A DNA stretch of 64,000 nt, taken from contig SXHN01000079.1 in assembly GCA_005773635.1 (NCBI GenBank), positions 36,568-100,567 on the forward strand, written 5' to 3'. Origin of the DNA: Actinomycetota bacterium (GTDB taxonomy: Bacteria; Actinomycetota; Acidimicrobiia; IMCC26256; PALSA-610). Both the position numbers and the translations under genes were made by a program. Shown one piece after another: positions 16,138 to 54,120 of this stretch (the stretch's first letter is position 1; the number at the start of each line of letters is the position of its first letter). A model generated the notes under the pieces. It saw only the letters and a list, made by a program, of their open reading frames with translations. It was not told the origin of the DNA and did not search any database.

Positions 16138-17370
16138 TTATGCCTCGCTTGCTGCGGTCTTTGCGACGATGCTGCGCGCCGCCATGACCGCGGTGCTGAG
16201 GGTTGCCTGCAGGAGATATCCGCCAGTCGGTGCTTCCCAGTCGAGCATCTCACCGACGGCATAGACGCTTGGCCGTTTGCTCAGCATGAAGTCGGCATCT
16301 ACTTCCTGTTGGGCGATGCCGCCGGCGGTCGATATGGCGCGGTCGATCGGCTGAACACCATCGACTTCGATGGAGAGGTTCTTGATGAGATGCGTGAGCT
16401 GTGCAACGTCATGAGGTACGGAATTCCCCGTCTGTTCTCGCAGGAGTGCCACTGCGGCTCGCGACAACCTCAACGTTCGCCGAAGCCAGTTGGATGTTGA
16501 TTCCTTCGGGCGTCGAGATGAGAGTTTTTGGCTCACTGCCTCGGCGGTGCGATCGGGTTGGAGGTCTAACAGGATTGTGGACTCGTGACCGCCTTCGATT
16601 CCGGTGCGTAACGGACGGGCCAAGGCGTAGATCGCGCCGCCCTCGATTCCATTGGCGGTGATCATTGCCTCCCCGCGAACGGTTGCGTTTTGGTATCGCA
16701 ATGCGATGTTCTTGAGAGGTATACCCGCGAAACGCGACGCGAAGTGGTCTGACCACGTAGTCAAAAAGCCACAGTTAGCAGGGCGTAACGGCACAATCTC
16801 GATCCCCGCTGTATTCAGCACCTCGGTCCACGCACCCGTTGCGCCCGTGCCTGGCCATGATGCACCCCCTAGAGAAAGAAGTGTCGCGTGCGGCGAGAAT
16901 TCGGTTTCTCCGAGTGATGGGTGCACGAAGCGCAACGCGTGGTTGTGATTCCAGCCCGTCCATCGGTGTTGGGTGCGGAATTCCACCCCTTGAGTCCGCA
17001 ACCTTTGCAGCAGTTTTCTGAGCAATGGGGTAGCGCGAAACGATGCAGGGAACACCCGGCCGCTCGTGCCTATGAATGTCGTTTCGCCGAGTTCGTTGCA
17101 CCAATTGCGCAGAGCTTCGGGGTCGAATGCCCGAATCGCTGGTTCCAGAAATGACCGATCCGGACCGTATCTATTGAGGAATTCTTCGATTGGCTCACTG
17201 TGGGTGATGTTGAGACCGCCGCGACCGGCGAGGAGAAACTTTCGGCCGGGAGATCGCATCTGATCGAACACCGTGACCGCTAGGCCTGCGCCAGAGAGCA
17301 AGTCTGCAGCAATAAGTCCGGCCGGGCCCCCACCGATGATGGCGACGTGTTGGGTGGGAATTGAGGTCAA
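16138..17370 (-). CDS. FAD-dependent oxidoreductase, HI0933/BaiN (aminoacetone-oxidase-like) family
   Basis: N-terminal GGGPAG dinucleotide motif, NITHS, and C-terminal STAGGIA motifs of the HI0933 family. Confidence 0.75.
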   Translation of the reverse strand: MTSIPTQHVAIIGGGPAGLIAADLLSGAGLAVTVFDQMRSPGRKFLLAGRGGLNITHSEPIEEFLNRYGPDRSFLEPAIRAFDPEALRNWCNELGETTFIGTSGRVFPASFRATPLLRKLLQRLRTQGVEFRTQHRWTGWNHNHALRFVHPSLGETEFSPHATLLSLGGASWPGTGATGAWTEVLNTAGIEIVPLRPANCGFLTTWSDHFASRFAGIPLKNIALRYQNATVRGEAMITANGIEGGAIYALARPLRTGIEGGHESTILLDLQPDRTAEAVSQKLSSRRPKESTSNWLRRTLRLSRAAVALLREQTGNSVPHDVAQLTHLIKNLSIEVDGVQPIDRAISTAGGIAQQEVDADFMLSKRPSVYAVGEMLDWEAPTGGYLLQATLSTAVMAARSIVAKTAASEA

Positions 17371-17918
17371 TCGATCAGCCCGAGGTAAGCACGTACGGCT
17401 TCGAGATTCTCTGCGATTGGCTTGGCCGCGTCGATGAGGAGCTTCGGCTCTGGAAGTGGTTCATACGCACTTCGCGACGCCGCGACGAAGCGCCAGTCGA
17501 GCTCGTCCCATCCGGGGATATTGCGCTGTCTACCGGTGATGCGGGTTTTGTGCACCGCTGCGTCTTCGAGGAAACATTCAATGACAAAGACGGGCGCCGC
17601 GTGTGCAGCGGCCAGATCTGACCACTGCGCGAGTGCTCGTGTTCGAGCGACACAGTCGGTGACTGACGACTGGCCTAGTCGCAGGCGAGACTCAATCATC
17701 CGTGACATCAACTCGTATCCGATGTCGCGTCTCGTGTCGACGTCGGGCGCGGCCGCCCAAACCTCTGGGAACACTCGCAACGCTGACATGATCCAGTCCC
17801 AGTTCAGTAGTGCGGCGTTGGTTTCTTTGGTGATTGCTTCGGCGAGCGTGGACTTGCCGGTGCCAGGTACTCCCGAAAAGACACAGACGAATGGGTTGTT
17901 CACGCCGTGAAGAGCCAT
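17367..17918 (-). CDS. P-loop NTPase / AAA-type kinase-like protein
   Basis: Walker A motif GVPGTGKST; about 180 aa; 4-nt overlap with the downstream flavoprotein gene. Confidence 0.6.
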   Translation of the reverse strand: MALHGVNNPFVCVFSGVPGTGKSTLAEAITKETNAALLNWDWIMSALRVFPEVWAAAPDVDTRRDIGYELMSRMIESRLRLGQSSVTDCVARTRALAQWSDLAAAHAAPVFVIECFLEDAAVHKTRITGRQRNIPGWDELDWRFVAASRSAYEPLPEPKLLIDAAKPIAENLEAVRAYLGLID

Positions 17919-18406
17919 CGAGTGGCAGTGAGAGGGAAATCTGGGTCTCGATCAATGAAGCCAAACGCTTTGTTCGGTACGACGCGAAAGTGCGGTCCGG
18001 GGTGCATTTCGGCAGCGTCCATGTCGTACTTTGCCGCGTACTGCTCCCAGTACGGCACAATGAGATCGGTGGGAATTGCTTCGATGACACCTTCGAGGAT
18101 GACAGGTTCCACCGTGTCGTCAACCGCGATTGAAACGTGACGATTCGTCTCGAAATTTCGGGCCTTTTTCGATAGAACGTCGGTTCCGAAGCAGAACCAA
18201 CGCTCGTCGACAAGGACGCCCCAAATTGGCATCAACTGCGGTCGTTGGTCGGTAGCGACCGAACAGATCCAATATCCACGGGATGCATTGATGCGGTCGA
18301 CGGCCCACGACCACGGCAAGAGTTCGCCTTCAGTTTCGGGTTTGATGCCATATGTAGATGCGGTCACTGGACGAGACGCGGCTACGAAATCGTGTTGCCG
18401 ATTCAT
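17900..18406 (-). CDS. Pyridoxamine-5'-phosphate-oxidase-like (split-barrel, possibly F420/FMN-binding) protein
   Basis: PNPOx-like split-barrel signature region (SVATDQRPQLMPIWGVLVDERWFCFGT). The start is set at the internal MNRQ so it abuts the upstream gene's stop. Confidence 0.65.
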   Translation of the reverse strand: MNRQHDFVAASRPVTASTYGIKPETEGELLPWSWAVDRINASRGYWICSVATDQRPQLMPIWGVLVDERWFCFGTDVLSKKARNFETNRHVSIAVDDTVEPVILEGVIEAIPTDLIVPYWEQYAAKYDMDAAEMHPGPHFRVVPNKAFGFIDRDPDFPLTATRWLFTA

Positions 18407-19779
18407 ATCGAGCCGGCATTCGTCAGACCGACTTGCGATTGTCGACGCCTCATGACGAAGGCGTCGATAGCGAAGGCAGTAGCTGTCCATACGAAGATGC
18501 GCGCTTGCACCGCGGCGCCCAATGAATGGCGCGCAAGCTCGAGGGCATCACCGTGAAACGCGGCCAGGGCGTGAGGAATCACGATACAGCCAATGGCAAG
18601 AATTGTGCATCCAAGACCGCGACGCGCTCGGTCTCCAAACCACAATGCCATTGCCAATCCAACCGATGCCAACGCCGCCCAGGCTGCCGTTATACGAAAT
18701 GGTGGTAGTCCGAGACCGCCGATGGCACGGGTGATCGGACCAGGTCGCATGCCTTGGGCAATTGCAATCGGTTCAAGGTTGGGGGTGAATTGATCGGACA
18801 TCATTGCCAGTGGTTTGGTTGCGACGAACCAAGGATGGGTCAACAGATACTTCATATAGACCGCTTGCCCGTGATCGTCGAGCCACCGTCGAAGCGGTTG
18901 GTAGTACGGGTCGTCACTTTGGAACGCCGGATATGTCAGGAAGTAATTGGCTTGCAACGTTTGTATCGCGCCGTCGTTCGGCAGCCCTTCATCGAGCAGC
19001 CATTCGTACGCGACTGGGTCATCTGCGATTCGCAGAACGATTGTTTCAGCAATTGGCCAGTACGAGCGATTCGCCGTTGACGACCATGTCATCGCAGTTG
19101 CGCCAACGATCACAAGCACCGTCGCGCTCGCGAAGAGGCGGGCACCGTGGGTTGCGCGACAACGTGGCACCATCCACGCCGAGAACGCGACCAGACCTAA
19201 ACAACCAGCAATAATGGCGTTGATGTCGCGAACAAACGAAGCGAAGATCAGTGCTGCAACGAATGCGATGGTCGTGCGGGTGTCAGCCCGCATCGCTAGT
19301 TGAATCGCAAGTGCGATTACCACGCAAGTGCTGCTGATAGCCAAGCTTTCTGTGGCAATTGCGACGTCGTACATCACAAACGCGGGCGTAAGTCCGGTTG
19401 CCAATATCCCGATGAATGCGAGCCATTGCGCGGTAGCGGAACGCATTGCGTGACGAACGCTGAGCGCGACACCCAACCAAGAGGCGATGGAAATAGCGGT
19501 TTGCGCGATCACGATGAGGCGGAGGTTGCGGCCGAGCACTTTGAGCATCAATGGGAAAATAAAAGGTCCCGGCGCTGTATAGAAATCCAACGAAAACAAC
19601 GAGGTCTGTGATGCCGTCGTATACGTGGGAGTGTCGGACCCAACGATGACGTGAATCCCACCTGTGTCGGTCGGTAACATCGCTCGAATCGCGTACCCAA
19701 TTTTGAGCGCAACAAAGATCGCTCCGATTGCAATGATTGCGGGATGGGGCTTCAGCGTTCGGGAGTTCGTCATGATCAT
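18403..19779 (-). CDS. Polytopic membrane protein, candidate GT-C-type glycosyltransferase
   Basis: The ~459-aa product starting MIMTNSRTLKPHPAIIAIGAIF has more than 10 predicted TM helices and periplasmic loops. Its ATG overlaps the TGA of the upstream membrane-protein gene (ATGA). The ORF-track N-terminal extension to 20565 is an Arg-rich artefact that overlaps the neighbouring gene. Confidence 0.6.
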   Translation of the reverse strand: MIMTNSRTLKPHPAIIAIGAIFVALKIGYAIRAMLPTDTGGIHVIVGSDTPTYTTASQTSLFSLDFYTAPGPFIFPLMLKVLGRNLRLIVIAQTAISIASWLGVALSVRHAMRSATAQWLAFIGILATGLTPAFVMYDVAIATESLAISSTCVVIALAIQLAMRADTRTTIAFVAALIFASFVRDINAIIAGCLGLVAFSAWMVPRCRATHGARLFASATVLVIVGATAMTWSSTANRSYWPIAETIVLRIADDPVAYEWLLDEGLPNDGAIQTLQANYFLTYPAFQSDDPYYQPLRRWLDDHGQAVYMKYLLTHPWFVATKPLAMMSDQFTPNLEPIAIAQGMRPGPITRAIGGLGLPPFRITAAWAALASVGLAMALWFGDRARRGLGCTILAIGCIVIPHALAAFHGDALELARHSLGAAVQARIFVWTATAFAIDAFVMRRRQSQVGLTNAGSI

Positions 19780-21245
19780 TGGGGGATTGTTTGAAGGATT
19801 TTGACAAAGTAGGAGGGGTATACGCCGAACGTAACAGCGTAGACAAGCACGGCCATGAGCCCCGTGTGCGCCACCACGATGAAGGCTCTCGGAATGCGAA
19901 GCCGTGGCACTGTAGGAATTGCGATCATCAGTAGCGGCAGCAGCGGAGCGAGGTAGCGGCCTTGCATGCCTGTGATTTCGAGTGAATCTTGAACTGTCAC
20001 CGTGTCGTACACGAACAAACTGAGCAACATGAACCCGGCGAGCAGCGCGAGCATCGCGGACATGAGGAATCGCTCGGTGCGGCTGAAATGAGCACGGTCT
20101 TGTTCCGGGGTTGAGAACCGGACGGCGAGTAACAGCAAGAAGCCTGCGAGCGAGAGCCACCACGGAGGCACCCACAGGCCGTAGTCGAATAGCGCGGTGG
20201 CTCCGATACGTTCGCCTTGGCGTGTGGCTGTATGCCAAGTCGCGGCAACGAAACGGCTCGGGTCGTCGCGTAATCGTTCCCACTGCAGTGTCGGGTCGAG
20301 CGTGCCAGGGTGTGGCAAGCCTCCGAGCATCTTCTCGATTGGTGATGCGTTTTCCGACCCGACGTAGGCGCCCAACACGAATCGATCGCTGAAGGCTGTA
20401 ATCCAAATACCACCGATGACCATGGTTGTCGCGACGACCGCAGCTACGAGCATCCGATGCGCACCTCGCGCTCGGAGCCAGGGAAGCGCGAAGACGCCAA
20501 TAACAAAGAAATACGGTGCTTTGGCATTGCCGAGTGCGAAGGCCGTCGCAAAAACTGCAAACCACTCGGTTCTGCTGATGGGCGCATCTCGCAGCTTGCG
20601 ATCACGAATGAGTAACGCCAAGCCAATGGCCGCGATTACCATCGCTACCGCGAAGGCATCAGGCGAGGCGTTCGCCGCAACGAACAGCGCGCTCGGGAAT
20701 ACGCCGATCCAGGCCAGTGGCCACTTCAGCACGGGCACGACTCTCAAGATTGCCGCGACAATCGCGACATAGAACAGTAGGTTGGCGATCCGCGCGAGTA
20801 TCAACAGGACGAGTGGCGACGCACCGAAAATACGACCAACGCCGATACCCACGGCACTCGGGATATGACCAGCGGGCGACAACGTGGCCATCGGGTACGA
20901 CACGAATTCATCCGGGCCGTCGGCGACAGCGTCATTCCATCGTTCCCAAGTGGCTGAGCGACGCTCGGTCCCACCAACCACTCGTAGTTTGGTCATCTCT
21001 TGTGTCAATCCGCTTGGAAGATCTGAGCCCACTCCGAATCCGCGCACTTCCAATATGAGGTCGCCTCGCGTGATGGCATAGGAACGTGCGAAGTGAGTTT
21101 GCTCGTCGTCTCCTGCGAAAGGGCGGGTTAAGACTGCGACCGCGAACCCAATAACGAGCGCGGTCACACAAAAGAAGCGGACGGGTGTGGCGAGTGATCT
21201 AACGCCCCGCGCGAGCTGGTGCGTCAAGGGCGTCACGGGGCGCAT
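19776..21245 (-). CDS. Polytopic membrane protein (DUF2142-like / putative GT-C glycosyltransferase)
   Basis: The product starting MRPVTPLTHQLARGVRSL has multiple TM helices. The ORF-track 5' extension (21246-21563) is Arg-rich junk. The gene is divergent from the epimerase gene, leaving only 45 nt between their start codons. Confidence 0.6.
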   Translation of the reverse strand: MRPVTPLTHQLARGVRSLATPVRFFCVTALVIGFAVAVLTRPFAGDDEQTHFARSYAITRGDLILEVRGFGVGSDLPSGLTQEMTKLRVVGGTERRSATWERWNDAVADGPDEFVSYPMATLSPAGHIPSAVGIGVGRIFGASPLVLLILARIANLLFYVAIVAAILRVVPVLKWPLAWIGVFPSALFVAANASPDAFAVAMVIAAIGLALLIRDRKLRDAPISRTEWFAVFATAFALGNAKAPYFFVIGVFALPWLRARGAHRMLVAAVVATTMVIGGIWITAFSDRFVLGAYVGSENASPIEKMLGGLPHPGTLDPTLQWERLRDDPSRFVAATWHTATRQGERIGATALFDYGLWVPPWWLSLAGFLLLLAVRFSTPEQDRAHFSRTERFLMSAMLALLAGFMLLSLFVYDTVTVQDSLEITGMQGRYLAPLLPLLMIAIPTVPRLRIPRAFIVVAHTGLMAVLVYAVTFGVYPSYFVKILQTIPQ

Positions 21246-21290
21246 CGTACTGTTATTCCCGGTCCTAAGCCTCGTATAGGGTTGGCGCTT

Positions 21291-22280
21291 ATGGCATCTC
21301 TCGACTCGGTGTTCGGCGGGCGCCGTGTGGTCGTGACGGGTGGCCTTGGGTTTATTGGCTCCAATCTTGCGATTCGCCTCAGTGCAGCCGACGCGAAGGT
21401 GACAATCGTCGACGCGTTGATTCCGCGCCACGGTGGTAATAAACGCAATGTCGATGGGTTCCCCGTCGACGTTGTCATTTCGGATATTGCCGATGCCACC
21501 ATGCTTGCGCCGATTCTTGCCAATGCGGAATTCGTGTTCAATCTCGCAGGGCAGGTGAGCCACATCGACTCGATGGAAGATCCACTCACGGATTTTGACC
21601 TCAACGCGCGGAGCCAGCTCGCGTTCCTCGAACTTCTGCGCCGCGTTACTCCCGAAGCTCGCGTCGTGTACGCATCAACCCGACAGATCTATGGGCGGCC
21701 CCGGTACCTCCCCGTTGATGAGCAACATCCGGTTGCGCCCGGCGATGTCAACGGCGTGTCGAAGTATGCAGCAGAACAGCTCCACATGTTGTATTCGTCG
21801 ATTCATTCGATGCGCACAACTGCGCTTCGCCTGACCAACACCTTTGGACCTCGCCAGCGTCTGCGAGGTGAACATATGGGCTTTATGCCGGTGTTCGTGG
21901 CTCGGGCACTTGAAAACCGCTCGATCACCGTGTTTGGCGACGGCTCCCAAGAACGGGACTGTCTGCACGTTGACGATGTCGTCGACTCGTTTCTGCTCGC
22001 GGCCCAGTCGGATGCCGCGATTGGGCAGGCGCTCAATATTGGTGGTGACGAACGATTTACGCTCGCTGATATCGCTAACTTGATCGTCGAAATCGCCGAC
22101 GCGGGAACGGTTGAATTTCGATCGTGGCCTCGCGAGCACGAACGTATCGATATTGGCTCTTACCAAGCCGACTCAGGTTTAGCGAAACAAATGCTTGGTT
22201 GGAACCCCAAGCTGCAACTCCGCGACGGGCTGCGATCCACGATCGACTATTACCGTGAACATCTGGGTTGGTATTTGTGA
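21291..22280 (+). CDS. NAD-dependent epimerase/dehydratase (extended SDR; nucleotide-sugar-modifying)
   Basis: GGLGFIGSNL Rossmann motif; the YxxxK catalytic pair in the VSKYAAE context. Confidence 0.85.
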   Translation: MASLDSVFGGRRVVVTGGLGFIGSNLAIRLSAADAKVTIVDALIPRHGGNKRNVDGFPVDVVISDIADATMLAPILANAEFVFNLAGQVSHIDSMEDPLTDFDLNARSQLAFLELLRRVTPEARVVYASTRQIYGRPRYLPVDEQHPVAPGDVNGVSKYAAEQLHMLYSSIHSMRTTALRLTNTFGPRQRLRGEHMGFMPVFVARALENRSITVFGDGSQERDCLHVDDVVDSFLLAAQSDAAIGQALNIGGDERFTLADIANLIVEIADAGTVEFRSWPREHERIDIGSYQADSGLAKQMLGWNPKLQLRDGLRSTIDYYREHLGWYL

Positions 22281-23338
22281 GCGAGGCGCTCATACCGGTC
22301 ACGAGTATTGCGCGACGGCTGGCACGACTCGAGCCGTCGATCGTTGCGGCCGCTACGCGTGTGGCTCGTTCGGGAACTGTTTTGTTAGGCCCCGAAACCG
22401 AAGCGTTTGAAGCCGAGTTCGCGCAGTACGTAGGTAAACAGCGATGCGTCGCAGTTGCATCAGGGACAGAAGCGCTCCGCCTTTCGCTGGTAGCCCTCGG
22501 TATAGGTCACGGCGACGAAGTGATCGTTCCTGCTTTCACCGCGGTGCCGACCGCAGCCTCGGTGTGTGCGACGGGCGCGACTCCGGTGTTTGTGGACGTT
22601 GACGAGTTCACGGGTGCGATCGATCATGAATCTTGCGCCGCCGCGATGAACAGCAAGACTCGAGCGGTCATAGTCGTGCATTTGTATGGGCGGCCTGCCC
22701 CGTTTCCTGAACTTGGCATTCCGATAATTAGTGATGCCGCGCATGCCCATGGTGCGCTGACGGGAGCGAACGGGCTCGATGCGGGGGCAACGCTGACTGC
22801 ATATTCCTTTTACCCAACCAAGAATCTGGGCGGCATGGGCGACGGTGGGGCCGTCGTGACCGACGACGAGGAACTCGCAGCCAAGGTCAGACTCCTGCGT
22901 ACTCACGGCATGACGGAGGGCTACGTCCATCGCGAAGTATCAACGAACGCTCGGATGTCGGAATTCGAAGCGGCGGTGTTGCGGTCGGCGCTCAGGGTGC
23001 TTGACGACGACAATCGCGCGCGCCGTCGGGTAGCCGAGCGCCTTCGCTTGGCGGCTCCTATGTTGCGGTGGCAAGAATCACACCCCGATCACGTATTTCA
23101 TTTGCTGGTGGCGCGCGTAGCGGATCGTGAGCGCTGGCGTGCTTCGCTAGGTTTCGCGACCGGTACGCATTACCCAGTTGCGCTCACTCGCCAGCCCGCG
23201 TACCAACGGTTTGTGCGTGCTGAGTGCCCTCGTGCTGAGGCCTGGGCTGAAGAATGCGTTTCGTTTCCGTGTTTTGCTGAACTGACATCGAGCGAGATCG
23301 CGGTCGTGGCCGAGTCGTTGGAGCGATGCCAATCATGA
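22268..23338 (+). CDS. DegT/DnrJ/EryC1/StrS-family PLP-dependent sugar aminotransferase
   Basis: Characteristic DegT fold with the lysine region SFYPTKNLGGMGDGGAV. The start overlaps the epimerase stop (GTGA at 22277-22280 or TTG at 22268). Confidence 0.85.
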   Translation: MVFVSEALIPVTSIARRLARLEPSIVAAATRVARSGTVLLGPETEAFEAEFAQYVGKQRCVAVASGTEALRLSLVALGIGHGDEVIVPAFTAVPTAASVCATGATPVFVDVDEFTGAIDHESCAAAMNSKTRAVIVVHLYGRPAPFPELGIPIISDAAHAHGALTGANGLDAGATLTAYSFYPTKNLGGMGDGGAVVTDDEELAAKVRLLRTHGMTEGYVHREVSTNARMSEFEAAVLRSALRVLDDDNRARRRVAERLRLAAPMLRWQESHPDHVFHLLVARVADRERWRASLGFATGTHYPVALTRQPAYQRFVRAECPRAEAWAEECVSFPCFAELTSSEIAVVAESLERCQS

Positions 23339-24078
23339 ACATGCCATCCAATCCAGCGGTGCAAAGTGTTTCAGCGTTCTTTCCTTGCTATAACGACGAA
23401 CTTTCAATCACGCAGATGGTCACGGGCGTTCACGAGACTCTCGAAAGGCTCGGCATTGATCACGATGTAACGGTGGTTGATGACGCTTCGGTCGATGGAT
23501 CACTCGGAGTATTGCGCGCCCTTGCAAGTGAAGTTGGCGAACTGCGGATCGTTGAACATTCGGCAAATCGTGGCTACGGTGGCGCGTTGCTTTCCGGATT
23601 CGCGGCAGCGCAGAAGCAGTGGGTTTTTTATACCGACGGCGATGCTCAGTACGATCCTCGTGAAATTGCACAGCTCATAGCGTTGGCAACCGACGATATT
23701 GATGTAGTGCAGGGCTACAAGATCCGGCGGTCTGATTCGCTAAAGCGGATTGTGATCGGCCGGGTGTATCACCACACGGTCGCAGTGATGTTCGGATTGC
23801 GTTTACGTGACGTTGATTGTGATTTCCGCCTTATGCGGCGCGAGGTTCTGGACACCATTCAGCTCAAAAATGCCAGCGGCGTGATTTGTGTTGAACTAAT
23901 GCGCAAACTGCAAGACGTCGACGCACGGATCGTGCAAACGCCCGTGTCGCACCTTGCACGCCCTCATGGTAGGTCGCAGTTTTTCCAACCCCGGCGAGTA
24001 GCCCGAAGTCTCTACGACCTCGTTCGGCTTTGGTTGTTGTTGGTTGTTGTCCCGAAGATGCGTTGGATCCGCACGTAG
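23326..24078 (+). CDS. Family-2 glycosyltransferase (DPM1/ArnC-like polyprenyl-phosphate sugar transferase)
   Basis: GT-A fold motifs: FFPCYNDE, VVDDASVDGS, and the D-x-D region in YTDGDAQ. Short, about 250 aa, typical of polyprenol-phosphate glycosyltransferases. Confidence 0.8.
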   Translation: MPIMNMPSNPAVQSVSAFFPCYNDELSITQMVTGVHETLERLGIDHDVTVVDDASVDGSLGVLRALASEVGELRIVEHSANRGYGGALLSGFAAAQKQWVFYTDGDAQYDPREIAQLIALATDDIDVVQGYKIRRSDSLKRIVIGRVYHHTVAVMFGLRLRDVDCDFRLMRREVLDTIQLKNASGVICVELMRKLQDVDARIVQTPVSHLARPHGRSQFFQPRRVARSLYDLVRLWLLLVVVPKMRWIRT

Positions 24079-24084
24079 CCGAAG

Positions 24085-24852
24085 CTAGGGCTGCAGCAGA
24101 CCGGTAGAGGCTCGTTGTGCAACAACAACCGCTGAGGTGCCAAACGGCAAATTGATTCGTCGCAGTATGTGGTGCTCCAATTCGGCGAGCTTTCGCATGA
24201 TTGGTGTCGCGATGCGGTCGGCTCTGCGGGCTTCTAGGTCGGAGCGTGGCGGTTGAGACGCACGTTTGCGTTTCACGATGCGCTGCGAACCGGCGATAAC
24301 GGCAGCCGGTGGGAAGAGAAAGGACTTCGCGTACGTAGAACGTGTGACCTGTAAGCCTGCGTTGACTGCGAGTCGTTCTAAGTCACCGGTTCGATAACGC
24401 CGGATTCCGTGCGTTAATACGTCGTGTTCGCGATGCAGTACGTTGAACGCGGGTTCAATGAACAACACTCGACCACCTGGACGCAATACGCGCGCGAATT
24501 CATTCACCGCAGTGCAGTCGTCATCGACGTGGTACAACACTGTTAGGGCCAGGACGAGGTCGACCGAGTGGTCAGCAATCGGTAGCGCAACGGCCGACGC
24601 CTGCAACGGAACCAACTCGGGGCGTCGAGTACGCACATATTCGAGCGCGATCGGTTCGTAGTCGAGCGCGATAACCGGCCCGTATTGTGCGAGCCACGCA
24701 CCGTTGCCTCCGGGACCGGCTCCCACGTCGAGGCTGACGATGCCGGGCTGCAGCGTCTCGACGAGAAGTTCGCGCAAGAGGCGACGCGTCGAGACGTACC
24801 ACCAATGGTGGTCTTCAGCCTGGGCAATGCGGTGGTATTCAGAGGAATCCAA
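24085..24852 (-). CDS. Class I SAM-dependent methyltransferase
   Basis: Motif I LDVGAGPGGNG and the post-I acidic residue region; Methyltransf_11-like. Confidence 0.8.
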   Translation of the reverse strand: MDSSEYHRIAQAEDHHWWYVSTRRLLRELLVETLQPGIVSLDVGAGPGGNGAWLAQYGPVIALDYEPIALEYVRTRRPELVPLQASAVALPIADHSVDLVLALTVLYHVDDDCTAVNEFARVLRPGGRVLFIEPAFNVLHREHDVLTHGIRRYRTGDLERLAVNAGLQVTRSTYAKSFLFPPAAVIAGSQRIVKRKRASQPPRSDLEARRADRIATPIMRKLAELEHHILRRINLPFGTSAVVVAQRASTGLLQP

Positions 24853-25026
24853 GGGTTTCTTACTAGTCGAAAATTAATGCAACGGGTTGATTGGCGCTCA
24901 CCTTTGAGAGACAGAACCGTTCGCCCGTTATGACTCCGGCTCCGGTTGAAAAGTCGTAGCGCGGCAAATCGAAATCATAACGATGCCCGCCTTGTGTCAC
25001 CGGGTTGGAACAGTTGGTGGAGTTGG

Positions 25027-25812
25027 TCATTTCAGTTCGGTGCGCAGGACACGGTACGTGCCCGCGGCAAGCGGGATCCAGACCCACCAGAAACTGGTCA
25101 CGAGGATTTGACCCCATGCTTCCCACGTCACTTCAGAACCGTCGAAGTCGAACAACGGCCCTTGGGCGGTTCCCGCGTCGATCCAAGGTGCCGCACCGCT
25201 GAGCCCTGGAACGATGTTCACGACGACGCCCATCAGAGTCGGAGCGATGAACGACAGGACAATTGCTGGTGCGCTATTGAGCAGGATTGTCCCGAATGCG
25301 AGGCCGCCGAGCAATCCGAGGATTTGTAACACGAAAACGTTGCGAATGACCGCTGCGTTTCCTGCCCAACTCCCGGCTTCATCAGTCAGCGTGCCACCAA
25401 TCACGTTGGCCAACGCTGCCAGCGTCAGCATGAACAAGATGGCACCGAATCCGAGCAAGAGAACCGCCACGATCTTCGAGGTCAGCACTCGCTGACGACT
25501 CGGCTCGAGCGTGAAGGTCGTGAGACCGGTGCGCTGGGACCACTCACTTGTAATGGCCAAAATGCCAAGCACCGGAAGGAGAAATCCTTGCGGTGTCCCT
25601 GCGACGAGTACGAGAGTCCTGAACTTGAGGTCTTCGGCTTTTGCAAACGCGACGAACAATGCGATTGCAATAAACGTGATTGCACCAATCGCGATCAGCA
25701 GCCATCGACCAGCACGAGTGTCGGTCGTTTTCCGAAGCTCTACTTTGACGAGCCGCGAGAACGGGATGGGCGTTCCTACGCGTGCGTTCGTCGATATCGT
25801 CGTCGCACTCAT
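25027..25812 (-). CDS. ABC-2-type transporter permease
   Basis: Six predicted TM helices; ABC-2 family architecture; 4-nt overlap with the upstream ATPase gene. Confidence 0.75.
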   Translation of the reverse strand: MSATTISTNARVGTPIPFSRLVKVELRKTTDTRAGRWLLIAIGAITFIAIALFVAFAKAEDLKFRTLVLVAGTPQGFLLPVLGILAITSEWSQRTGLTTFTLEPSRQRVLTSKIVAVLLLGFGAILFMLTLAALANVIGGTLTDEAGSWAGNAAVIRNVFVLQILGLLGGLAFGTILLNSAPAIVLSFIAPTLMGVVVNIVPGLSGAAPWIDAGTAQGPLFDFDGSEVTWEAWGQILVTSFWWVWIPLAAGTYRVLRTELK

Positions 25813-26708
25813 GGTGTCACCGCCTCCCGGCTGTCTTCGGCGGTCAATTGCATAAATACTTCTTCGAGCCCCTCGCTGTCGGCAGGTCGGAGTTCAACAA
25901 GTACAACGCCAGCCATCGCAGCGGCACGACCAACTTGTTCCGCAGTCCCGTCGACGATGAACGTGTTTTCGTCTCGCCGCGTGGCCGCCAGACTCGCGGC
26001 CATGATTGCAGTACCCAAAGCCTCGGGATCGAGACCTCGCACCAATGTTCCTGCGTTTGCAAGCATGTCGGTCTTCGAACCCTGCGCCACGATTTTGCCG
26101 CGGCCGATGACTACTAGCTCGTCGGCGATGACCTCGATCTCGTGCAACAGGTGCGACGACAACAACACCGTCCCGCCTTGTTCCGCGAAGCCACGCAGTA
26201 GGCCGCGCATCCAGCGAATGCCCATAGGGTCGAGACCGTTCGCAGGTTCGTCGAGCACCAACACTTCAGGCGCCCCCAAGAGTGCGTGTGCGATGCCTAA
26301 CCGTTGACGCATCCCGAGGGAATAGTTCGCGACGCGACGTTTCGCTTCGGTCGGCGTCAAGGCCACAACCTCAAGCATCTCGTCGACTCGCTCCGTGGGT
26401 AACCCCATCACCAACGCACCAAGCGTCAGGATTTCTCGACCGGTGCGCCCTGCGTGTTGGGCCGACGCGTCGAGCAAAATTCCGACTCGAGTGCCAGGGT
26501 TGCCGATGCTCGCATACGGGACGCCGAAGATGGTGGAAGTGCCGCTCGTAGGTGGGGTAAGCCCACACATCATGCGCATCGTCGTAGATTTTCCGGCGCC
26601 GTTTGGACCAAGAAATCCAGTCACGGTCCCCGGACGCGCCGAAAACGACACGCGGTCTACTGCGATGAAATCGCCGTAGCGCTTCGTGAGTTCGCGGACT
26701 TCGATCAT
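25809..26708 (-). CDS. ABC transporter ATP-binding protein
   Basis: Walker A GPNGAGKST, the LSGGQ-like YSLGMRQRL signature, Walker B LVLDEP, and the H-loop. Confidence 0.85.
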   Translation of the reverse strand: MIEVRELTKRYGDFIAVDRVSFSARPGTVTGFLGPNGAGKSTTMRMMCGLTPPTSGTSTIFGVPYASIGNPGTRVGILLDASAQHAGRTGREILTLGALVMGLPTERVDEMLEVVALTPTEAKRRVANYSLGMRQRLGIAHALLGAPEVLVLDEPANGLDPMGIRWMRGLLRGFAEQGGTVLLSSHLLHEIEVIADELVVIGRGKIVAQGSKTDMLANAGTLVRGLDPEALGTAIMAASLAATRRDENTFIVDGTAEQVGRAAAMAGVVLVELRPADSEGLEEVFMQLTAEDSREAVTP

Positions 26709-26734
26709 GGCTGTCCTTTGTGCACGTGTAGTTG

Positions 26735-27958
26735 TTAGCGCGGTACTTGGCTCCACGGCAACGTCTTGTCGACGCGTGGTTCTCCAGGAAGACCGAGGAT
26801 TCGTTCGCCCAAGATGTTGCGCATGATTTCGCTTGTACCGCCCTCGATTGAGTTCGCGCGGGCTCGCAAGAACATGTGGCGGCTTGCTCCGGGCACGCCT
26901 TCAAGGCCGACGTCGGTAGGGCGACGGAACGTGAAGTCGAATCCGTCGAGTGCGCGCGCTCCGAGCAGATTCATGCAGAGTTCGTAGATTTTTTGATGGT
27001 TGATCGCAAGTGCGAGCTTGGCGATCGAACCTTCGGGGCCGGGGTTTCCCGATCGTGCTGCAGCTACTGCTCGCAAGTTGGTGAGCCGCAATACTTCGGC
27101 GTCTACCCAACCTTTCATCAGCTGGTCTTTACGCGCCGGCGACTGTGTGGTTGCCTCGTCGTTCCAGATGCGCACGGCTTCCGCGATGGCCCCAGCACCG
27201 CGCTTCGGGCCTCCGCCACCGCCGCCTCCACCACCGATGGAGGTACGTTCATTCGCAAGGGTGGTAAGTGAAACTCCCCACCCTTCGCCTACAGCACCGA
27301 TGCGATAGCTGTCGGGGATGCGAGCGTCGGTGAGGTACACCTCGTTGAATTCCGCTTCGCCGGTGATTTGCCGTAGCGGTCGTACCTCTACTCCTGGTTG
27401 GTGCATGTCGACCGCGAAGTAGGTCATGCCTTTGTGCTTTGGCGTTTCGGGGTCGGTACGCGTGACGAGCATTCCAAAATCGGCGAGGTGTGCGAGCGTG
27501 TTCCAAACTTTCTGACCGTTCACCACCCATTCCTCACCGTCTCGTTCGGCACGAGTGGCGAGCGACGCGAGGTCCGACCCCGCGCCCGGTTCGCTGAAGA
27601 GCTGGCACCACACTTCTTCGCCAGTAAACATTGGGCGTAGAAATCGTTGTTTCGCCCATTCGCTGCCGTGGGTCACGATCGTTGGTGCCACTAAGAACAA
27701 ACCGAAAAAGAGTTTGCTTTCGCCGCCCGGCGCGCCAGCGGCGCGTACTCGCCGGTCTACCTCGCGTTGCAAGCCCGGGCGGACGCCGAGCCCGCCGTAG
27801 CCGGCTGGGAAGCTGATCCAGGCAAGACCCTTGTCGAACTGTGCGCCTCGAAATGTGAAACTGTCGACCTTCGCGGGATCACATTCGGCGAGGAGTTCTT
27901 CGGTCAGAGCAATCACTCGTTGAGTATCGGCGTCGACTTCGCTGGCAGTTGTATGCAT
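26735..27958 (-). CDS. Acyl-CoA dehydrogenase
   Basis: ACAD N-terminal, middle and C-terminal domains (GAQFDKGLAW..., FSEPGAGSDL, ...IEGGTSEIMRN). The start is set at MHTTASE to avoid overlapping the divergent plsY. Confidence 0.8.
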   Translation of the reverse strand: MHTTASEVDADTQRVIALTEELLAECDPAKVDSFTFRGAQFDKGLAWISFPAGYGGLGVRPGLQREVDRRVRAAGAPGGESKLFFGLFLVAPTIVTHGSEWAKQRFLRPMFTGEEVWCQLFSEPGAGSDLASLATRAERDGEEWVVNGQKVWNTLAHLADFGMLVTRTDPETPKHKGMTYFAVDMHQPGVEVRPLRQITGEAEFNEVYLTDARIPDSYRIGAVGEGWGVSLTTLANERTSIGGGGGGGGGPKRGAGAIAEAVRIWNDEATTQSPARKDQLMKGWVDAEVLRLTNLRAVAAARSGNPGPEGSIAKLALAINHQKIYELCMNLLGARALDGFDFTFRRPTDVGLEGVPGASRHMFLRARANSIEGGTSEIMRNILGERILGLPGEPRVDKTLPWSQVPR

Positions 27959-42388: not shown

Positions 42389-43786
42389 TTACACCGCTCC
42401 GATTGCCACAATCTCGGCGAACCCGGCCGCTATATCCGCAACAAGCTGGCTGACATCGGGGACTGCTGCGGTGTCGGTCACGATACCGATACAGCATGTG
42501 TCGATATGCGACATGAGCGTGACGTTGACTGCTGCGCCAGAAGGGGGGCCGAACGCGAAAAAGCGTTCAACCCGGGCTCCGCCGAGAAATACCGGCACCG
42601 GTGCGCCTGGCACATTTGACGTGACGAAGTCCACGCACTTCAGCATGCCGCCGAATAGCGCAGTGGTGGTGGAAGTGGGGAGTCGGTTTAAGACGCCAGC
42701 GAGCGTGCCGGTGAGCCCGAGGGCGGGTTCTTGGCGCCATTCCTTCACTAGGGCTCCGACGGCCTTCATTCGGTCGACTGGGTCTGCGATATTGGTGGGG
42801 ACTCCAAAGCGTGCCGGAGCGAAATGGTTGCCCGCGGCTTCTGCGCCCTCGGTTCGGATATTGATGGGCATCGTCATGCGCAACTGATCGACCGGGCTGT
42901 CGTGGCGGTCGTGATAGCGCATCAACCCGCCGATGACCGCGGCAACGAATGCATCGTTGAGGCTGCCTTGGCCAGCTTTGGCAGCTCGTTTTAACTCGTC
43001 GAGGGTCAATTCGAGCGTATCGAGACGACGCCCCATGCCCCGTGCAACCATGACGGGCGACATCGGTGCACTTGCGGGCGCTACGGCACGCCCGATTGAA
43101 CGCGCCGCATCTACGGCGCGAACGGTCGAGCCGAACGGATCGCGGACTGCGCTGGTTGCAGTTTCGATAGCGACCGACGGCACCCGGCTGCTAATCCCCA
43201 TGACTCTGCGGGCCGTGTGGGCCATCGATTCGCGTACAAGATCGGTGCCGCCGAGCGGTTCGGGTGCTGGGGCGGCCGGAGCATTCGCAGGCAACGCAGC
43301 GTCTGCGGTGAGGTCGACGAGCTGCGCGAGCAACTCCACTCCACCGACGCCGTCGGTGACCGAGTGATGCACTTTCATTACCAGCGCGGCCGTACCGTCT
43401 TGGAGGCCTTCGATGACCGTTGCTTCCCACGGTGGTCGGGCTCGGTCGAAGCTTGCTTGAGCAATTGGGGCAATAAAATCAAGGAGTTCTCGGTGGGTGG
43501 CACCGGGCGGTAGATGAACGCGGCGCAGGTGATAGTTCAAGTCGAAGTCCGATTCGACGGCCCACCGCGGTGGGCCGAGCCGCAATGGTGGCGACAACAC
43601 CCGCTGACGCAAGCGAGGAATTGTGCGGGTCGCGATTTCGAAGCGTTTCTGAAGGCGCTTCCAGTCAGGCGCCGCATCAAGGATCCCGACCGCCACAATC
43701 GTGGAACGCAGAATTGGATCCTTTTCGATGTTCCACATGAGCGCGTCCGCGTCGCTCATGTGATCGGAGAAATCTTTCGCGCTCAT
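42389..43786 (-). CDS. Wax-ester synthase / diacylglycerol O-acyltransferase (WS/DGAT)
   Basis: Catalytic HHxxxDG motif (HHSVTDGVGG) and two-domain WS/DGAT architecture. Confidence 0.85.
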   Translation of the reverse strand: MSAKDFSDHMSDADALMWNIEKDPILRSTIVAVGILDAAPDWKRLQKRFEIATRTIPRLRQRVLSPPLRLGPPRWAVESDFDLNYHLRRVHLPPGATHRELLDFIAPIAQASFDRARPPWEATVIEGLQDGTAALVMKVHHSVTDGVGGVELLAQLVDLTADAALPANAPAAPAPEPLGGTDLVRESMAHTARRVMGISSRVPSVAIETATSAVRDPFGSTVRAVDAARSIGRAVAPASAPMSPVMVARGMGRRLDTLELTLDELKRAAKAGQGSLNDAFVAAVIGGLMRYHDRHDSPVDQLRMTMPINIRTEGAEAAGNHFAPARFGVPTNIADPVDRMKAVGALVKEWRQEPALGLTGTLAGVLNRLPTSTTTALFGGMLKCVDFVTSNVPGAPVPVFLGGARVERFFAFGPPSGAAVNVTLMSHIDTCCIGIVTDTAAVPDVSQLVADIAAGFAEIVAIGAV

Positions 43787-54048: not shown

Positions 54049-54120
54049 TCGGGGGTGGTGTAATGGCAGCACACGGGTTTTTGGTGCCCGTAGGTCAAGG
54101 TTCGAGTCCTTGCCCCCGAG
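54049..54120 (+). tRNA. tRNA-Gln (anticodon UUG)
   Basis: Manual cloverleaf: acceptor tcggggg/cccccga, D-arm gtgt-aatggca-gcac, anticodon arm cgggt-ttTTGgt-gcccg, variable loop taggt, T-arm caagg-TTCGAGT-ccttg, discriminator G. No CCA is encoded. Confidence 0.75.

What the first reader, a model, noticed from the sequence alone, without database searches (positions are those of the whole stretch)
18403..24852. Arn-like aminosugar / polyprenyl-phosphate glycosylation cluster with two GT-C-type membrane proteins
A divergent pair of operons. On the plus strand, an NAD-epimerase/dehydratase, a DegT-type sugar aminotransferase and a short GT2 of the DPM1/ArnC type overlap by 4-13 nt. On the minus strand, two large polytopic membrane proteins (~459 and ~490 aa) are coupled through ATGA. 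A SAM-methyltransferase is convergent at the end. The logic is make a nucleotide amino-deoxy-sugar, load it on polyprenyl-phosphate, then transfer it outside by GT-C enzymes. This parallels ArnABCT lipid-A aminoarabinosylation, but here in an actinobacterial-type genome where the acceptor (lipoglycan, arabinogalactan-like polymer, or protein) is unknown. The start codons of the divergent operons are only 45 bp apart, leaving almost no room for separate promoters.
Basis: inference. Interest (0 to 1): 0.7.

Follow-up and report, generated by a model that had tools for sequence, protein, structure and literature searches.

The report
Lipid-carrier amino-sugar envelope glycosylation cluster
An uncultured actinobacterium carries a compact gene set that most likely builds an amino sugar, loads it on a membrane lipid carrier and attaches it to the cell envelope using two membrane glycosyltransferases of uncharacterised families; this is a new variant of a known strategy, and its first enzyme lacks the usual catalytic tyrosine.

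Summary
In detail: six real genes lie at the stated coordinates with the stated overlaps and a 45-bp divergent gap.

Family assignments hold:
- An extended SDR.
- A DegT aminotransferase with its PLP lysine.
- A 247-aa GT2 whose seven best solved relatives are all polyprenyl-phosphate glycosyltransferases (ArnC, DPMS, GtrB).
- B is DUF2142.
- A class-I SAM methyltransferase.

In 80 metagenomic loci anchored on the SDR:
- The aminotransferase follows directly in 56 of 65 testable loci.
- The orthologous GT2 is present in 25.
- The methyltransferase is present in 11.
- Other large polytopic proteins often sit alongside (PMT_2; weak GT87, YfhO and PgfM2 hits).

So the amino sugar to polyprenyl-phosphate to GT-C logic is supported, by analogy only. 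No gene is an Arn orthologue, and ArnD, ArnE/F and the formyltransferase are absent.

New points:
- The SDR belongs to a large subfamily with Asn in place of the catalytic Tyr in 201 of 201 sequences.
- The aminotransferase is closer to C-3 aminotransferases than to ArnB.
- A is dispensable in a close relative.
- Conserved -10-like elements suggest that leaderless transcription explains the short gap.

The sugar and the acceptor remain unknown.

The parts
18403..19779 (-). Protein A, 458 aa: a polytopic GT-C-fold membrane protein of a family that has no Pfam model. It is the predicted extracytoplasmic glycosyltransferase and is accessory.
19776..21245 (-). Protein B, 489 aa: a DUF2142 polytopic membrane protein, predicted to be the core GT-C glycosyltransferase. 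It is translationally coupled to A by an ATGA overlap.
21246..21290 (.). The 45-bp divergent intergenic region, which carries back-to-back -10-like elements.
   Evidence: TAGGGT (21277-21282, plus strand) lies 8 nt before the SDR ATG. A TANNNT at the equivalent position is kept in L006, L011 and L013. TACGAT (21248-21243, minus strand) overlaps B's annotated ATG and lies 6 nt before an in-frame GTG. The sigma-70 consensus scan finds nothing. Leaderless transcription is an inference.
21291..22280 (+). A non-canonical extended SDR (329 aa) of the NDP-sugar epimerase/dehydratase family. It has T-R-Q in place of T-S-E and Asn154 in place of the catalytic Tyr.
   Evidence: It matches Pfam Epimerase at 6e-45. 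Its best solved relative is human UXS1 (128 bits), and that alignment shows Tyr replaced by Asn and STSE replaced by STRQ. The signature is invariant across 201 sequences. It is 76% identical to the L006/L008 orthologues. A DegT gene follows directly in 56 of 65 testable loci.
22277..23338 (+). A DegT/DnrJ/EryC1-family PLP-dependent sugar aminotransferase (353 aa).
   Evidence: It matches Pfam at 3e-86. The PLP lysine in SFYPTKNLG aligns with that of DesV. PDB ranking: 7b0d 228 bits, DesV 225, WbpE 206, QdtB 200, ArnB 157, PseC and PglE below 65. All NCBIfam equivalog scores are below their cut-offs.
23335..24078 (+). A short GT2 (247 aa) of the polyprenyl-phosphate glycosyltransferase type. 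It has no transmembrane helices and a hydrophobic C-terminal helix.
   Evidence: NCBIfam best hits: ArnC 4e-24, PgfS 4e-20, AglJ, Dol-P hexose transferase, PpgS. PDB hits: ArnC three times, DPMS, and GtrB sll0501 three times. It carries a DGD motif. There is only one weak hydrophobic stretch, at 222-240. Orthologues of 220-296 bits adjoin the SDR-aminotransferase pair in 25 of 80 loci.
24085..24852 (-). A class-I SAM-dependent methyltransferase (255 aa), convergent on the GT2 gene and conserved with the module.
   Evidence: It matches Methyltransf_11 at 2e-19. It stays next to the module in L006 although the flanks differ. It is also kept in L014, L075, L059 and L069, 11 loci in all. Its best solved relatives are weak: phosphoethanolamine and PE N-methyltransferases at 30-38 bits.
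17900..18406 (-). A PNPOx / F420-type PPOX-like protein (168 aa), coupled to A by an ATGA overlap. Whether it belongs to the system is uncertain.
   Evidence: It matches Pfam PNPOx_N at 1e-8 and has weak hits to the TIGR03667 and TIGR03618 F420 PPOX classes. The overlap is shown. It is absent together with A in L011 and lies close to the cluster in L007.

Best explanation
This is a self-contained envelope-decoration system of the polyprenyl-phosphate-sugar type.

**Proposed mechanism**
1. In the cytoplasm, the SDR and the DegT aminotransferase convert a nucleotide sugar, through a keto intermediate, into a nucleotide-linked amino-deoxy sugar.
2. The co-conserved SAM methyltransferase may methylate that sugar.
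3. The short ArnC/DPM1-type GT2 transfers the sugar to polyprenyl phosphate at the inner face of the membrane.
4. The lipid-linked sugar is flipped. No flippase has been identified.
5. The DUF2142 protein B transfers the sugar to an unknown envelope acceptor. In this lineage the second GT-C-fold protein A does so as well. A and B probably differ in acceptor or in linkage.

Both divergent operons are probably transcribed from -10 elements packed into the 45-bp gap, as leaderless or near-leaderless mRNAs.

**Shown**
- Gene structure and family or fold assignments.
- Conservation of the SDR-aminotransferase(-GT2)(-methyltransferase) module.
- Its repeated association with large polytopic proteins.

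**Inferred**
- Every chemical step.
- The identity and amino position of the sugar.
- The lipid carrier.
- The direction of transfer.
- The acceptor.
For: **GT2.** All seven significant solved relatives are polyprenyl-phosphate glycosyltransferases (ArnC, DPMS, GtrB). The best curated families are ArnC, PgfS, AglJ, Dol-P hexose transferase and PpgS.

**Aminotransferase.** It is a DegT-family member at 3e-86 with the PLP lysine present.

**Comparative evidence.**
- The whole arrangement (methyltransferase | GT2-aminotransferase-SDR | B-A) is kept in a relative with 53-76% protein identity and different flanking genes.
- In 80 SDR-anchored metagenomic loci the aminotransferase follows in 56 of 65 testable loci. 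The orthologous GT2 is present in 25 and the methyltransferase in 11.
- Polytopic neighbours of the module include PMT_2 (L066, L076), weak GT87 and YfhO hits (L080, L069), a below-cut-off PgfM2 hit (L078) and a polytopic-TPR protein (L060).

**What is absent.** No priming phosphoglycosyltransferase, Wzx or Wzy is seen in the roughly 40 kb annotated around the cluster.

**Precedents.** Arn is one (own knowledge). PpgS/Rv3632/Rv3779/Rv3634c, which puts GalN on arabinogalactan in Corynebacteriales, is another (PMC9671496).
Against: - The SDR lacks the catalytic Tyr (Asn154) and the Ser/Glu of UXS and ArnA (Arg-Gln), so its ability to make a keto sugar is unproven.
- The aminotransferase ranks closest to C-3 aminotransferases. 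These normally need a 3-keto sugar made by a GFO-type dehydrogenase or a ketoisomerase. Such a GFO gene follows A in the relative L007/L008 but is missing from this window.
- The GT2 scores far below every curated equivalog cut-off and has no transmembrane helices.
- No flippase or small helper protein (GtrA, ArnE/F, Rv3632 type) was found.
- B's structural model is of low confidence.
- The same SDR-aminotransferase pair occurs in Azospirillum in a conventional glycosyltransferase cluster with no ArnC-like GT2 annotated beside it. The pair itself is therefore not specific to lipid-carrier pathways.
- None of the 80 SDR-anchored loci carries an A-family or B-family protein.
Confidence: 0.6

Rival explanations
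1. The carrier logic is the same but the sugar chemistry differs. The Tyr-less SDR is not the oxidase; it would be an epimerase-like, binding or otherwise non-redox partner. The keto sugar is instead made at C-3 by a GFO/IDH/MocA dehydrogenase encoded elsewhere in this genome. The product would then be a 3-amino-3-deoxy sugar (kanosamine or GlcNAc3N type), not a 4-amino sugar as in Arn.
For: The aminotransferase's best solved relatives are the C-3 aminotransferases DesV, WbpE and QdtB (200-226 bits), against 157 bits for ArnB. A GFO_IDH_MocA gene is ATGA-coupled to A in L007/L008, and that lineage keeps a 76%-identical SDR. The GFO protein has weak hits to UDP-GlcNAc 3-dehydrogenase and inositol dehydrogenase models. 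The SDR lacks Tyr and Glu.
Against: There is no GFO homologue anywhere in the 64-kb window, and clear ones are rare in the 80 loci. The SDR-aminotransferase adjacency (56 of 65) argues that the SDR supplies the aminotransferase's substrate. Bit-score ranking does not reliably give the regiochemistry of DegT enzymes. PglF is a precedent for an active sugar SDR without the Tyr (own knowledge).
Confidence: 0.25
2. A and B are not monosaccharide transferases. They are polymerase or ligase-type enzymes acting on undecaprenyl-diphosphate-linked oligosaccharides, as proposed for the lactococcal DUF2142 proteins WpsI and WpsJ. The GT2 only supplies a side-branch sugar, or is unrelated to them.
For: In Lactococcus and Streptococcus thermophilus cell-wall polysaccharide loci, DUF2142 proteins are assigned polymerase or polysaccharide-transfer roles (PMC12599335, PMC9746298). 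A-family proteins also occur alone, without the sugar module.
Against: No priming phosphoglycosyltransferase, Wzx flippase, chain-length regulator or further glycosyltransferase is found within about 10 kb either side. The only glycosyltransferase in the cluster is of the ArnC/DPM1 type. The lactococcal roles are themselves predictions.
Confidence: 0.12
3. The GT2 is an ordinary cytoplasmic glycosyltransferase that adds the amino sugar to a soluble or lipid-linked acceptor, and the two membrane proteins are merely neighbours.
For: The GT2 has no transmembrane helix and is below every curated cut-off. In Azospirillum the SDR-aminotransferase pair sits among conventional glycosyltransferases.
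Against: All significant solved relatives of the GT2 are polyprenyl-phosphate glycosyltransferases. Short enzymes of this class without transmembrane helices exist (PpgS, human DPM1; own knowledge). The divergent B-A | SDR arrangement is conserved in L006, L008 and L013 with 45-70-bp spacers. The module is repeatedly adjacent to large polytopic, GT-C-like proteins in other lineages.
Confidence: 0.08

Closest known systems
ArnABCDTEF pathway (L-Ara4N modification of lipid A, Proteobacteria)
   Same: The order of operations matches. An SDR-family enzyme and a DegT aminotransferase make a UDP-amino sugar. An ArnC-type GT2 loads it on polyprenyl phosphate. A GT-C enzyme transfers it outside the membrane. 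ArnC is the best curated and best solved match of the GT2, and ArnT is among the top structural matches of A.
   Different: - No gene is an orthologue. Scores against cut-offs are ArnA 30 vs 777, ArnB 165 vs 631 and ArnC 85 vs 529 bits.
- There is no formyltransferase domain, no ArnD deformylase and no ArnE/F.
- The SDR lacks the Tyr, Ser and Glu of ArnA.
- The GT2 lacks ArnC's two C-terminal transmembrane helices.
- The GT-C proteins are not of the PMT_2/ArnT family.
- A methyltransferase is added.
- The host is an actinobacterium, so the acceptor cannot be lipid A.
PpgS / Rv3632 / Rv3779 / Rv3634c system (GalN on arabinogalactan, Mycobacterium and Corynebacterium)
   Same: It is an actinobacterial system. 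An SDR (an epimerase), a short DPM1-like GT2 without transmembrane helices, and a GT-C transferase decorate an envelope polysaccharide with a cationic amino sugar via polyprenyl phosphate (PMC9671496).
   Different: In that system the amine comes from deacetylation of GalNAc, not from transamination. A small helper membrane protein (Rv3632) is needed, and no counterpart is seen here. The PpgS equivalog scores 45.5 bits against a cut-off of 370. There are two GT-C proteins here, of other families.
Three-component Gtr-type glycosylation (GtrA/GtrB/GtrX; CsbB-YfhO; GacI/GacL; WsfH/WsfD; PgfS/PgfM1/PgfM2)
   Same: A polyprenyl-phosphate GT2 is combined with a polytopic GT-C-fold transferase. PgfS is the second-best curated match of the GT2, and WsfD is the only (weak) curated match of A. 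In other loci the same sugar module sits beside proteins with PMT_2 hits or weak YfhO and PgfM2 hits.
   Different: Those systems use ready-made UDP-Glc or UDP-GlcNAc, whereas this one has dedicated amino-sugar synthesis and a methyltransferase. No GtrA-like flippase is present. The GT2 has no transmembrane segments.
Lactococcal and streptococcal DUF2142 proteins (WpsI, WpsJ, rgp-locus proteins)
   Same: B belongs to the same Pfam family, and these are polytopic envelope-glycan enzymes (PMC12599335, PMC9746298).
   Different: Those proteins are predicted to handle Und-PP-linked oligosaccharides within large polysaccharide loci. Here the locus contains only a monosaccharide-carrier GT2.

Membership tests
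Arn pathway | ArnA: an N-terminal formyltransferase fused to a UDP-GlcA oxidative decarboxylase with catalytic Thr-Ser-Glu and Tyr-x3-Lys | tested here: not met
   The SDR has 329 aa and no formyltransferase domain. The ArnA equivalog scores 29.8 bits against a cut-off of 777. It has TRQ instead of TSE and Asn instead of Tyr.
Arn pathway | ArnB equivalog (UDP-4-keto-pentose 4-aminotransferase) | tested here: not met
   The score is 164.6 bits against a cut-off of 631. DesV, WbpE and QdtB score higher than ArnB in the PDB search. The general DegT fold and the PLP lysine are present.
Arn pathway | ArnC equivalog with two C-terminal transmembrane helices | tested here: not met
   The score is 85.1 bits against a cut-off of 529, aligned to ArnC positions 4-224 only. 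No transmembrane helix is predicted. ArnC is nevertheless the best match.
Arn pathway | ArnT (PMT_2 / GT83 family) transferase; ArnD deformylase; ArnE/F flippase | tested here: not met
   A and B have no PMT_2 or ArnT hit. No deacetylase or small SMR/EamA genes appear in the gene lists covering about 10 kb either side.
GT-C fold glycosyltransferases | A polytopic N-terminal module with the GT-C helix arrangement and an acidic catalytic residue in the first extracytoplasmic loop | tested here: met
Pfam DUF2142 (PF09913) | A score above the gathering threshold of 30.1 bits | tested here: met
   B scores 123.8 bits over the full-length model. A has no hit. A-family relatives reach only 27.1 and 20.4 bits, and hhalign of A against B is not significant. 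A is therefore not a member.
Polyprenyl-phosphate glycosyltransferases (GT2: DPM1/GtrB/ArnC/PpgS type) | A GT-A domain with DXD, most similar to known polyprenyl-phosphate glycosyltransferases, plus transfer to polyprenyl phosphate | tested here: inconclusive
   Similarity and the DGD motif are met. The activity cannot be tested here. All curated equivalog cut-offs are missed.
Canonical extended SDR sugar-nucleotide enzymes (GalE/RmlB/UXS) | GxxGxxG NAD-binding site plus a catalytic Ser/Thr-Tyr-Lys triad | tested here: not met
   The NAD motif TGGLGFIGS, the Thr130 and the Lys158 are present. The Tyr is Asn in 201 of 201 subfamily members.
DegT/DnrJ/EryC1 sugar aminotransferases | Family HMM match and a Schiff-base lysine (not the His of the dehydratases) | tested here: met
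   The score is 290.5 bits. The Lys in SFYPTKNLG aligns with that of DesV and 7b0d.
PpgS/Rv3779 GalN system | PpgS equivalog, an Rv3632-like helper and an Rv3779-type GT-C | tested here: not met
   PpgS scores 45.5 bits against a cut-off of 370. No small membrane helper gene is present: the 55-aa ORF is not hydrophobic.

The most novel reading that the evidence does not exclude
The SDR-aminotransferase(-GT2)(-methyltransferase) module is an uncharacterised, widely distributed pathway to a lipid-carrier-linked amino sugar that may be N-methylated and therefore cationic. Its first enzyme represents a new mechanistic class of sugar-nucleotide SDR: the catalytic Tyr is invariantly Asn, and the signature Thr-Arg-Gln / Gln88 / His91 / His165 is new. 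In this Acidimicrobiia-like lineage the sugar is delivered to the envelope by two GT-C families that have never been studied. One of them has no Pfam model although it has about 2,700 cluster representatives. This would be the actinobacterial counterpart of Ara4N-type charge modification.
Probability: 0.3. Interest if true: 0.7.

Novelty: new variant of a known kind. Interest (0 to 1): 0.5.

Why it matters
Decorating the cell envelope with amino sugars through polyprenyl-phosphate carriers controls charge, antimicrobial-peptide resistance and phage recognition in Proteobacteria and Corynebacteriales. This cluster extends that strategy to poorly known, uncultured Actinomycetota.

It also gives a functional context to three uncharacterised protein groups:
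- DUF2142.
- A large GT-C-fold family that has no Pfam model.
- A very large SDR subfamily that lacks the catalytic tyrosine but is almost always paired with a DegT aminotransferase.

The SDR-aminotransferase pair also occurs in cultured Azospirillum lipoferum, so the chemistry can be tested directly.

Tried and rejected
- **Are A and B paralogues?** BLASTP and two hhalign profile comparisons were not significant. They are treated as separate families. A-family members do show sub-threshold DUF2142 hits.
- **Sequence search of B against the PDB** gave nothing meaningful.
- **Genome-collection scan with the 8-sequence A alignment** failed because no stretch was conserved enough. The 5-sequence version found only one genome, an uncultured Actinomycetes MAG in which the A homologue stands alone.
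- **Is the methyltransferase a TylM1/DesVI-type sugar N,N-dimethyltransferase?** Those do not appear among its PDB hits. Only weak generic N- and O-methyltransferase hits were found. The idea is kept only as a possibility.
- **Search for a GFO 3-dehydrogenase in the window** found none.
- **A-family and B-family proteins next to the module in the 80 other loci:** none were found.
- **N-terminal extensions and tandem forms of the A family** have no Pfam domains.
- **Literature searches** for an Arn-like actinobacterial system and for PDB entry 7b0d gave nothing useful.
- **The afdb50 fold library** was unavailable.
- **Sigma-70 consensus scan of the intergenic region** found no promoter.
- **An aminocyclitol (inosamine) reading** was prompted by the depositor's name for 7b0d and by the GFO protein's weak inositol-dehydrogenase hit. 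It was rejected as the main reading because the aminotransferase is tightly linked to an NDP-sugar-type SDR and to a GT2.

Full report
**Observation**

- On the minus strand, B (19776-21245, 489 aa) and A (18403-19779, 458 aa) share an ATGA overlap.
- On the plus strand, the SDR (21291-22280), the DegT aminotransferase (22277-23338) and the GT2 (23335-24078) overlap by 4 nt each. The overlaps are 13 nt if the more upstream starts are used.
- A SAM methyltransferase (24085-24852, minus strand) converges on the GT2. The two stop codons are 6 nt apart.
- The annotated B and SDR start codons are 45 bp apart.

The window is identical to public metagenome contigs. The longest is ENA ERZ27257035 k141_456608, 464 kb, and independent gene calls on it agree. 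The flanks are housekeeping genes: ilvBNC, MOSC, an acyl-CoA dehydrogenase, PlsY and DegV. The nearest named relatives of the SDR come from Acidimicrobiia and Acidimicrobiales MAGs. The only species-representative genome with an A homologue is an uncultured Actinomycetes MAG. The 'actinobacterial' attribution is therefore reasonable.

**The membrane proteins**

B is a full-length DUF2142 protein (PF09913, E 1e-35). A has no Pfam family and only a weak NCBIfam hit to the glycan hexose transferase WsfD (25.7 bits against a cut-off of 80).

Both proteins carry a conserved acidic motif immediately after the first transmembrane helix, where GT-C enzymes have their catalytic acid. In B it is GDDE, present in all five full-length homologues. 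In A it is Asp49, invariant in eight homologues.

A and B are not detectably related to each other. Some A-family members give sub-threshold DUF2142 hits (27.1 and 20.4 bits).

A profile of the A family finds 2,692 cluster representatives at E ≤ 0.001, of which 1,133 are at ≤ 1e-30. These include tandem A-A fusions and forms with N-terminal extensions, none of which has a Pfam domain. A therefore belongs to a large, unnamed GT-C-fold family.

**The GT2**

Its best curated families are ArnC (4e-24), PgfS (4e-20), AglJ, dolichyl-phosphate hexose transferase and PpgS. All are far below their equivalog cut-offs. Every significant solved relative is a polyprenyl-phosphate glycosyltransferase: three ArnC sequences, P. 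furiosus DPMS and three GtrB sll0501 sequences. The protein has a DGD motif, no transmembrane helix and a hydrophobic C-terminal helix. This resembles the short DPM1/PpgS type rather than ArnC itself.

**The sugar enzymes**

The aminotransferase is a clear DegT-family member with the Schiff-base lysine. Its solved relatives rank as follows:
- 7b0d: 228 bits.
- DesV: 225 bits.
- WbpE: 206 bits.
- QdtB: 200 bits.
- ArnB: 157 bits.
- PseC and PglE: about 63 bits each.

It is therefore nearer to C-3 aminotransferases than to ArnB. Ranking alone does not settle the regiochemistry.

The SDR is the surprise. Its best solved relative is human UDP-xylose synthase (128 bits). The alignment shows the catalytic Tyr of YxxxK replaced by Asn154, and the Thr-Ser-Glu motif replaced by Thr-Arg-Gln.

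This is not a local degeneration:
- The orthologues in L006 and L008 are 76% identical and keep both features.
- Across 201 subfamily sequences, Arg131 and Asn154 are invariant. Gln132, Gln88, His91 and His165 are nearly so. Lys158 is present in 191.
- A second SDR that follows the aminotransferase in 14 of the other loci is canonical (STSE...Y...K) and resembles UXS and ArnA.

The subfamily is very large: 7,997 of the 8,000 candidates scored reach E ≤ 1e-20. It also occurs in cultured Azospirillum lipoferum 4B, again directly followed by a DegT gene. Whether this SDR oxidises the sugar by a non-canonical mechanism or does something else cannot be decided here. PglF is a precedent for an active sugar SDR without the Tyr (own knowledge).

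**Comparative genomics**

A relative with 53-76% protein identity (L006-L008, GCA_037025085/105) keeps the same arrangement: methyltransferase | GT2-aminotransferase-SDR | B-A. Its flanking genes are different. In L007 and L008 a GFO/IDH/MocA oxidoreductase is ATGA-coupled after A. L013 also keeps SDR | B-A. A closer relative, L011 (B 71% identical, same ilv synteny), lacks both A and the PNPOx gene. B is therefore the core transferase and A is accessory. There is no GFO homologue anywhere in the window.

Eighty metagenomic loci were anchored on the SDR, and their ORFs were searched with the cluster proteins:
- The aminotransferase lies directly downstream in 56 of 65 testable loci.
- An orthologous GT2 (>130 bits) is present in 25 loci, and directly upstream in 21 of 65.
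- The methyltransferase (>60 bits) is present in 11.
- L014 and L075 share the window's SDR-aminotransferase-GT2 order. In L014 the methyltransferase is convergent downstream, as in the window. In L075 it lies upstream on the opposite strand.
- In L059 and L069 the order is GT2-SDR-aminotransferase-methyltransferase.

None of these loci has an A-family or B-family protein. Many have other large polytopic proteins beside the module:
- PMT_2, the Pfam family of ArnT, in L066 and L076.
- A weak GT87 hit in L080.
- A weak YfhO hit in L069.
- A below-cut-off PgfM2/PgfM1 hit in L078.
- A polytopic-TPR protein in L060.
- An AZOBR_p60025 glycopolymer-family protein in L075.
- Several proteins of 735-860 aa with 10-11 transmembrane segments and no family.

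This is the pattern expected of a portable 'make an amino sugar and put it on the lipid carrier' module that plugs into lineage-specific outer-face transferases.

There, conventional glycosyltransferases flank the pair and no ArnC-like GT2 is annotated beside it. The SDR-aminotransferase pair alone is therefore not tied to carrier lipids, so that condition is only partly avoided.

**Mechanism proposed** (inference; confidence about 0.6)

1. The SDR and the aminotransferase convert a nucleotide sugar, via a keto intermediate, into a nucleotide amino-deoxy sugar.
2. The methyltransferase possibly methylates it. Its best solved relatives are amine N-methyltransferases, but weakly.
3. The GT2 makes polyprenyl-P-amino-sugar.
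4. The lipid-linked sugar is flipped by an unidentified factor.
5. B, and in this lineage also A, transfers the sugar to an unknown envelope acceptor.

No priming phosphoglycosyltransferase, Wzx or Wzy is nearby. This argues against the rival reading, taken from lactococcal DUF2142 proteins, in which A and B polymerise or ligate Und-PP-linked oligosaccharides (PMC12599335, PMC9746298).

The main open sub-question is the amino position. A C-3 route through a GFO dehydrogenase encoded elsewhere is a serious alternative (confidence about 0.25). The evidence for it is the aminotransferase's similarity profile, the GFO gene in the sister lineage and the Tyr-less SDR.

**The 45-bp gap**

A TANNNT -10-like hexamer (TAGGGT, 21277-21282) lies 8 nt upstream of the SDR ATG. 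An equivalent hexamer 7-8 nt before the ATG is kept in L006, L011 and L013, although the spacers otherwise differ. On the other strand, TACGAT (21248-21243) overlaps B's annotated ATG and lies 6 nt before an in-frame GTG. Similar TANNNT-spacer-GTG arrangements appear in L006 and L013.

Leaderless mRNAs are common in Actinomycetota (own knowledge). The short gap is therefore not anomalous, and B may start three codons later than annotated. The E. coli-type consensus scan finds nothing. All of this is inference.

**Comparison with known systems**

The cluster works like Arn but is not a member of that pathway:
- Every Arn equivalog cut-off is missed by a wide margin.
- The formyltransferase, ArnD and ArnE/F are absent.
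- The GT2 lacks ArnC's transmembrane helices.
- Neither GT-C protein is of the ArnT/PMT_2 family.

The closest actinobacterial precedent is the PpgS/Rv3632/Rv3779/Rv3634c system that puts GalN on arabinogalactan (PMC9671496). That system obtains its amine by deacetylation and needs a small helper protein, which is not seen here.

More generally this is a Gtr-type system (polyprenyl-phosphate GT2 plus GT-C) with a dedicated amino-sugar branch. I therefore rate it a new variant of a known kind.

The parts that would interest a specialist are:
- The invariant Tyr-to-Asn SDR subfamily, tightly coupled to DegT.
- The unnamed GT-C family of A.
- The pairing of two unrelated GT-C proteins.

Nothing here is experimentally established, and the sugar, the carrier and the acceptor are unknown.

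Noticed in passing
window 16138-18406 (-): The minus-strand chain of overlapping genes continues beyond A. It runs through a PNPOx/F420-PPOX-like gene (17900-18406, ATGA overlap with A), an AAA_33 P-loop protein (17367-17918, 19-nt overlap) and a TIGR03862/HI0933-like flavoprotein (16138-17370, TTGA overlap). The operon may therefore hold five genes, not two.
   Followed up: partly
L011 1-2177 (ENA ERZ28573541 scaffold_29228): A close relative (B 71% identical, same ilvBNC/MOSC synteny) has B followed directly by the AAA_33 gene. A and the PNPOx gene are both missing, so this is a presence/absence polymorphism of the second GT-C gene.
   Followed up: partly
L007 2975-4084; L008 4278-5387: In the 53-76% related lineage, a GFO/IDH/MocA oxidoreductase (369 aa) is ATGA-coupled after A. 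Its weak hits are to inositol 2-dehydrogenase and UDP-GlcNAc 3-dehydrogenase models. A spermine-synthase/AdoMet-decarboxylase fusion follows it. No GFO homologue occurs in the 64-kb window.
   Followed up: partly
window 21291-22280 and 201 homologues (P0165-P0284, L014-L093): A very large extended-SDR subfamily has an invariant Asn at the catalytic Tyr position, an invariant Arg-Gln after the Thr, and subfamily-specific Gln88, His91 and His165. A DegT aminotransferase almost always follows it. Public sources annotate it only as 'UDP-glucose 4-epimerase' or 'NAD-dependent epimerase/dehydratase'.
   Followed up: yes
L096 8992-11092 (Azospirillum lipoferum 4B plasmid AZO_p6, NC_016588.1 269325-271425): The same Asn-variant SDR (47% identical, motifs ASTRQIYG and DVNGINK) and a DegT gene sit in a cultured organism, among glycosyltransferases and methyltransferases. 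This is a tractable system for finding out which sugar the pair makes.
   Followed up: partly
window 24863-26756 (-): The methyltransferase lies 10 nt downstream of a 55-codon non-hydrophobic ORF. That ORF is ATGA-coupled to an ABC-2 permease and an ABC ATPase on the same strand. The transporter is not kept next to the module in L006, so the linkage may be incidental.
   Followed up: partly
window 24076-24087: The convergent GT2 and methyltransferase genes end 6 nt apart. There is no room for a terminator, so the transcripts must overlap or read into each other.
   Followed up: no
P0020, P0024, P0029, P0035, P0059 (A-family representatives): The A family includes tandem A-A fusions of about 970-1,000 aa, forms of about 720-740 aa with an N-terminal extension of about 270 aa and no known domain, and one fusion to a sulfatase-type domain (P0059).
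   Followed up: partly
L019, L022, L031, L042, L044, L066, L070, L072, L087, L089: A recurrent larger operon is seen in other lineages: GT2, GT2, the orthologous GT2, the Asn-variant SDR, the aminotransferase and then usually a canonical UXS/ArnA-like SDR. In L072 and L022 MurJ lies a few kb downstream. Where present, the second SDR makes this version look closer to Arn chemistry than the window's cluster does.
   Followed up: partly
window 42389-43786 (-); 54049-54121 (+): A WS/DGAT wax-ester synthase/acyltransferase gene is present, a family I know mainly from Actinomycetota. The only RNA gene detected in the window is tRNA-Gln(TTG).
   Followed up: no
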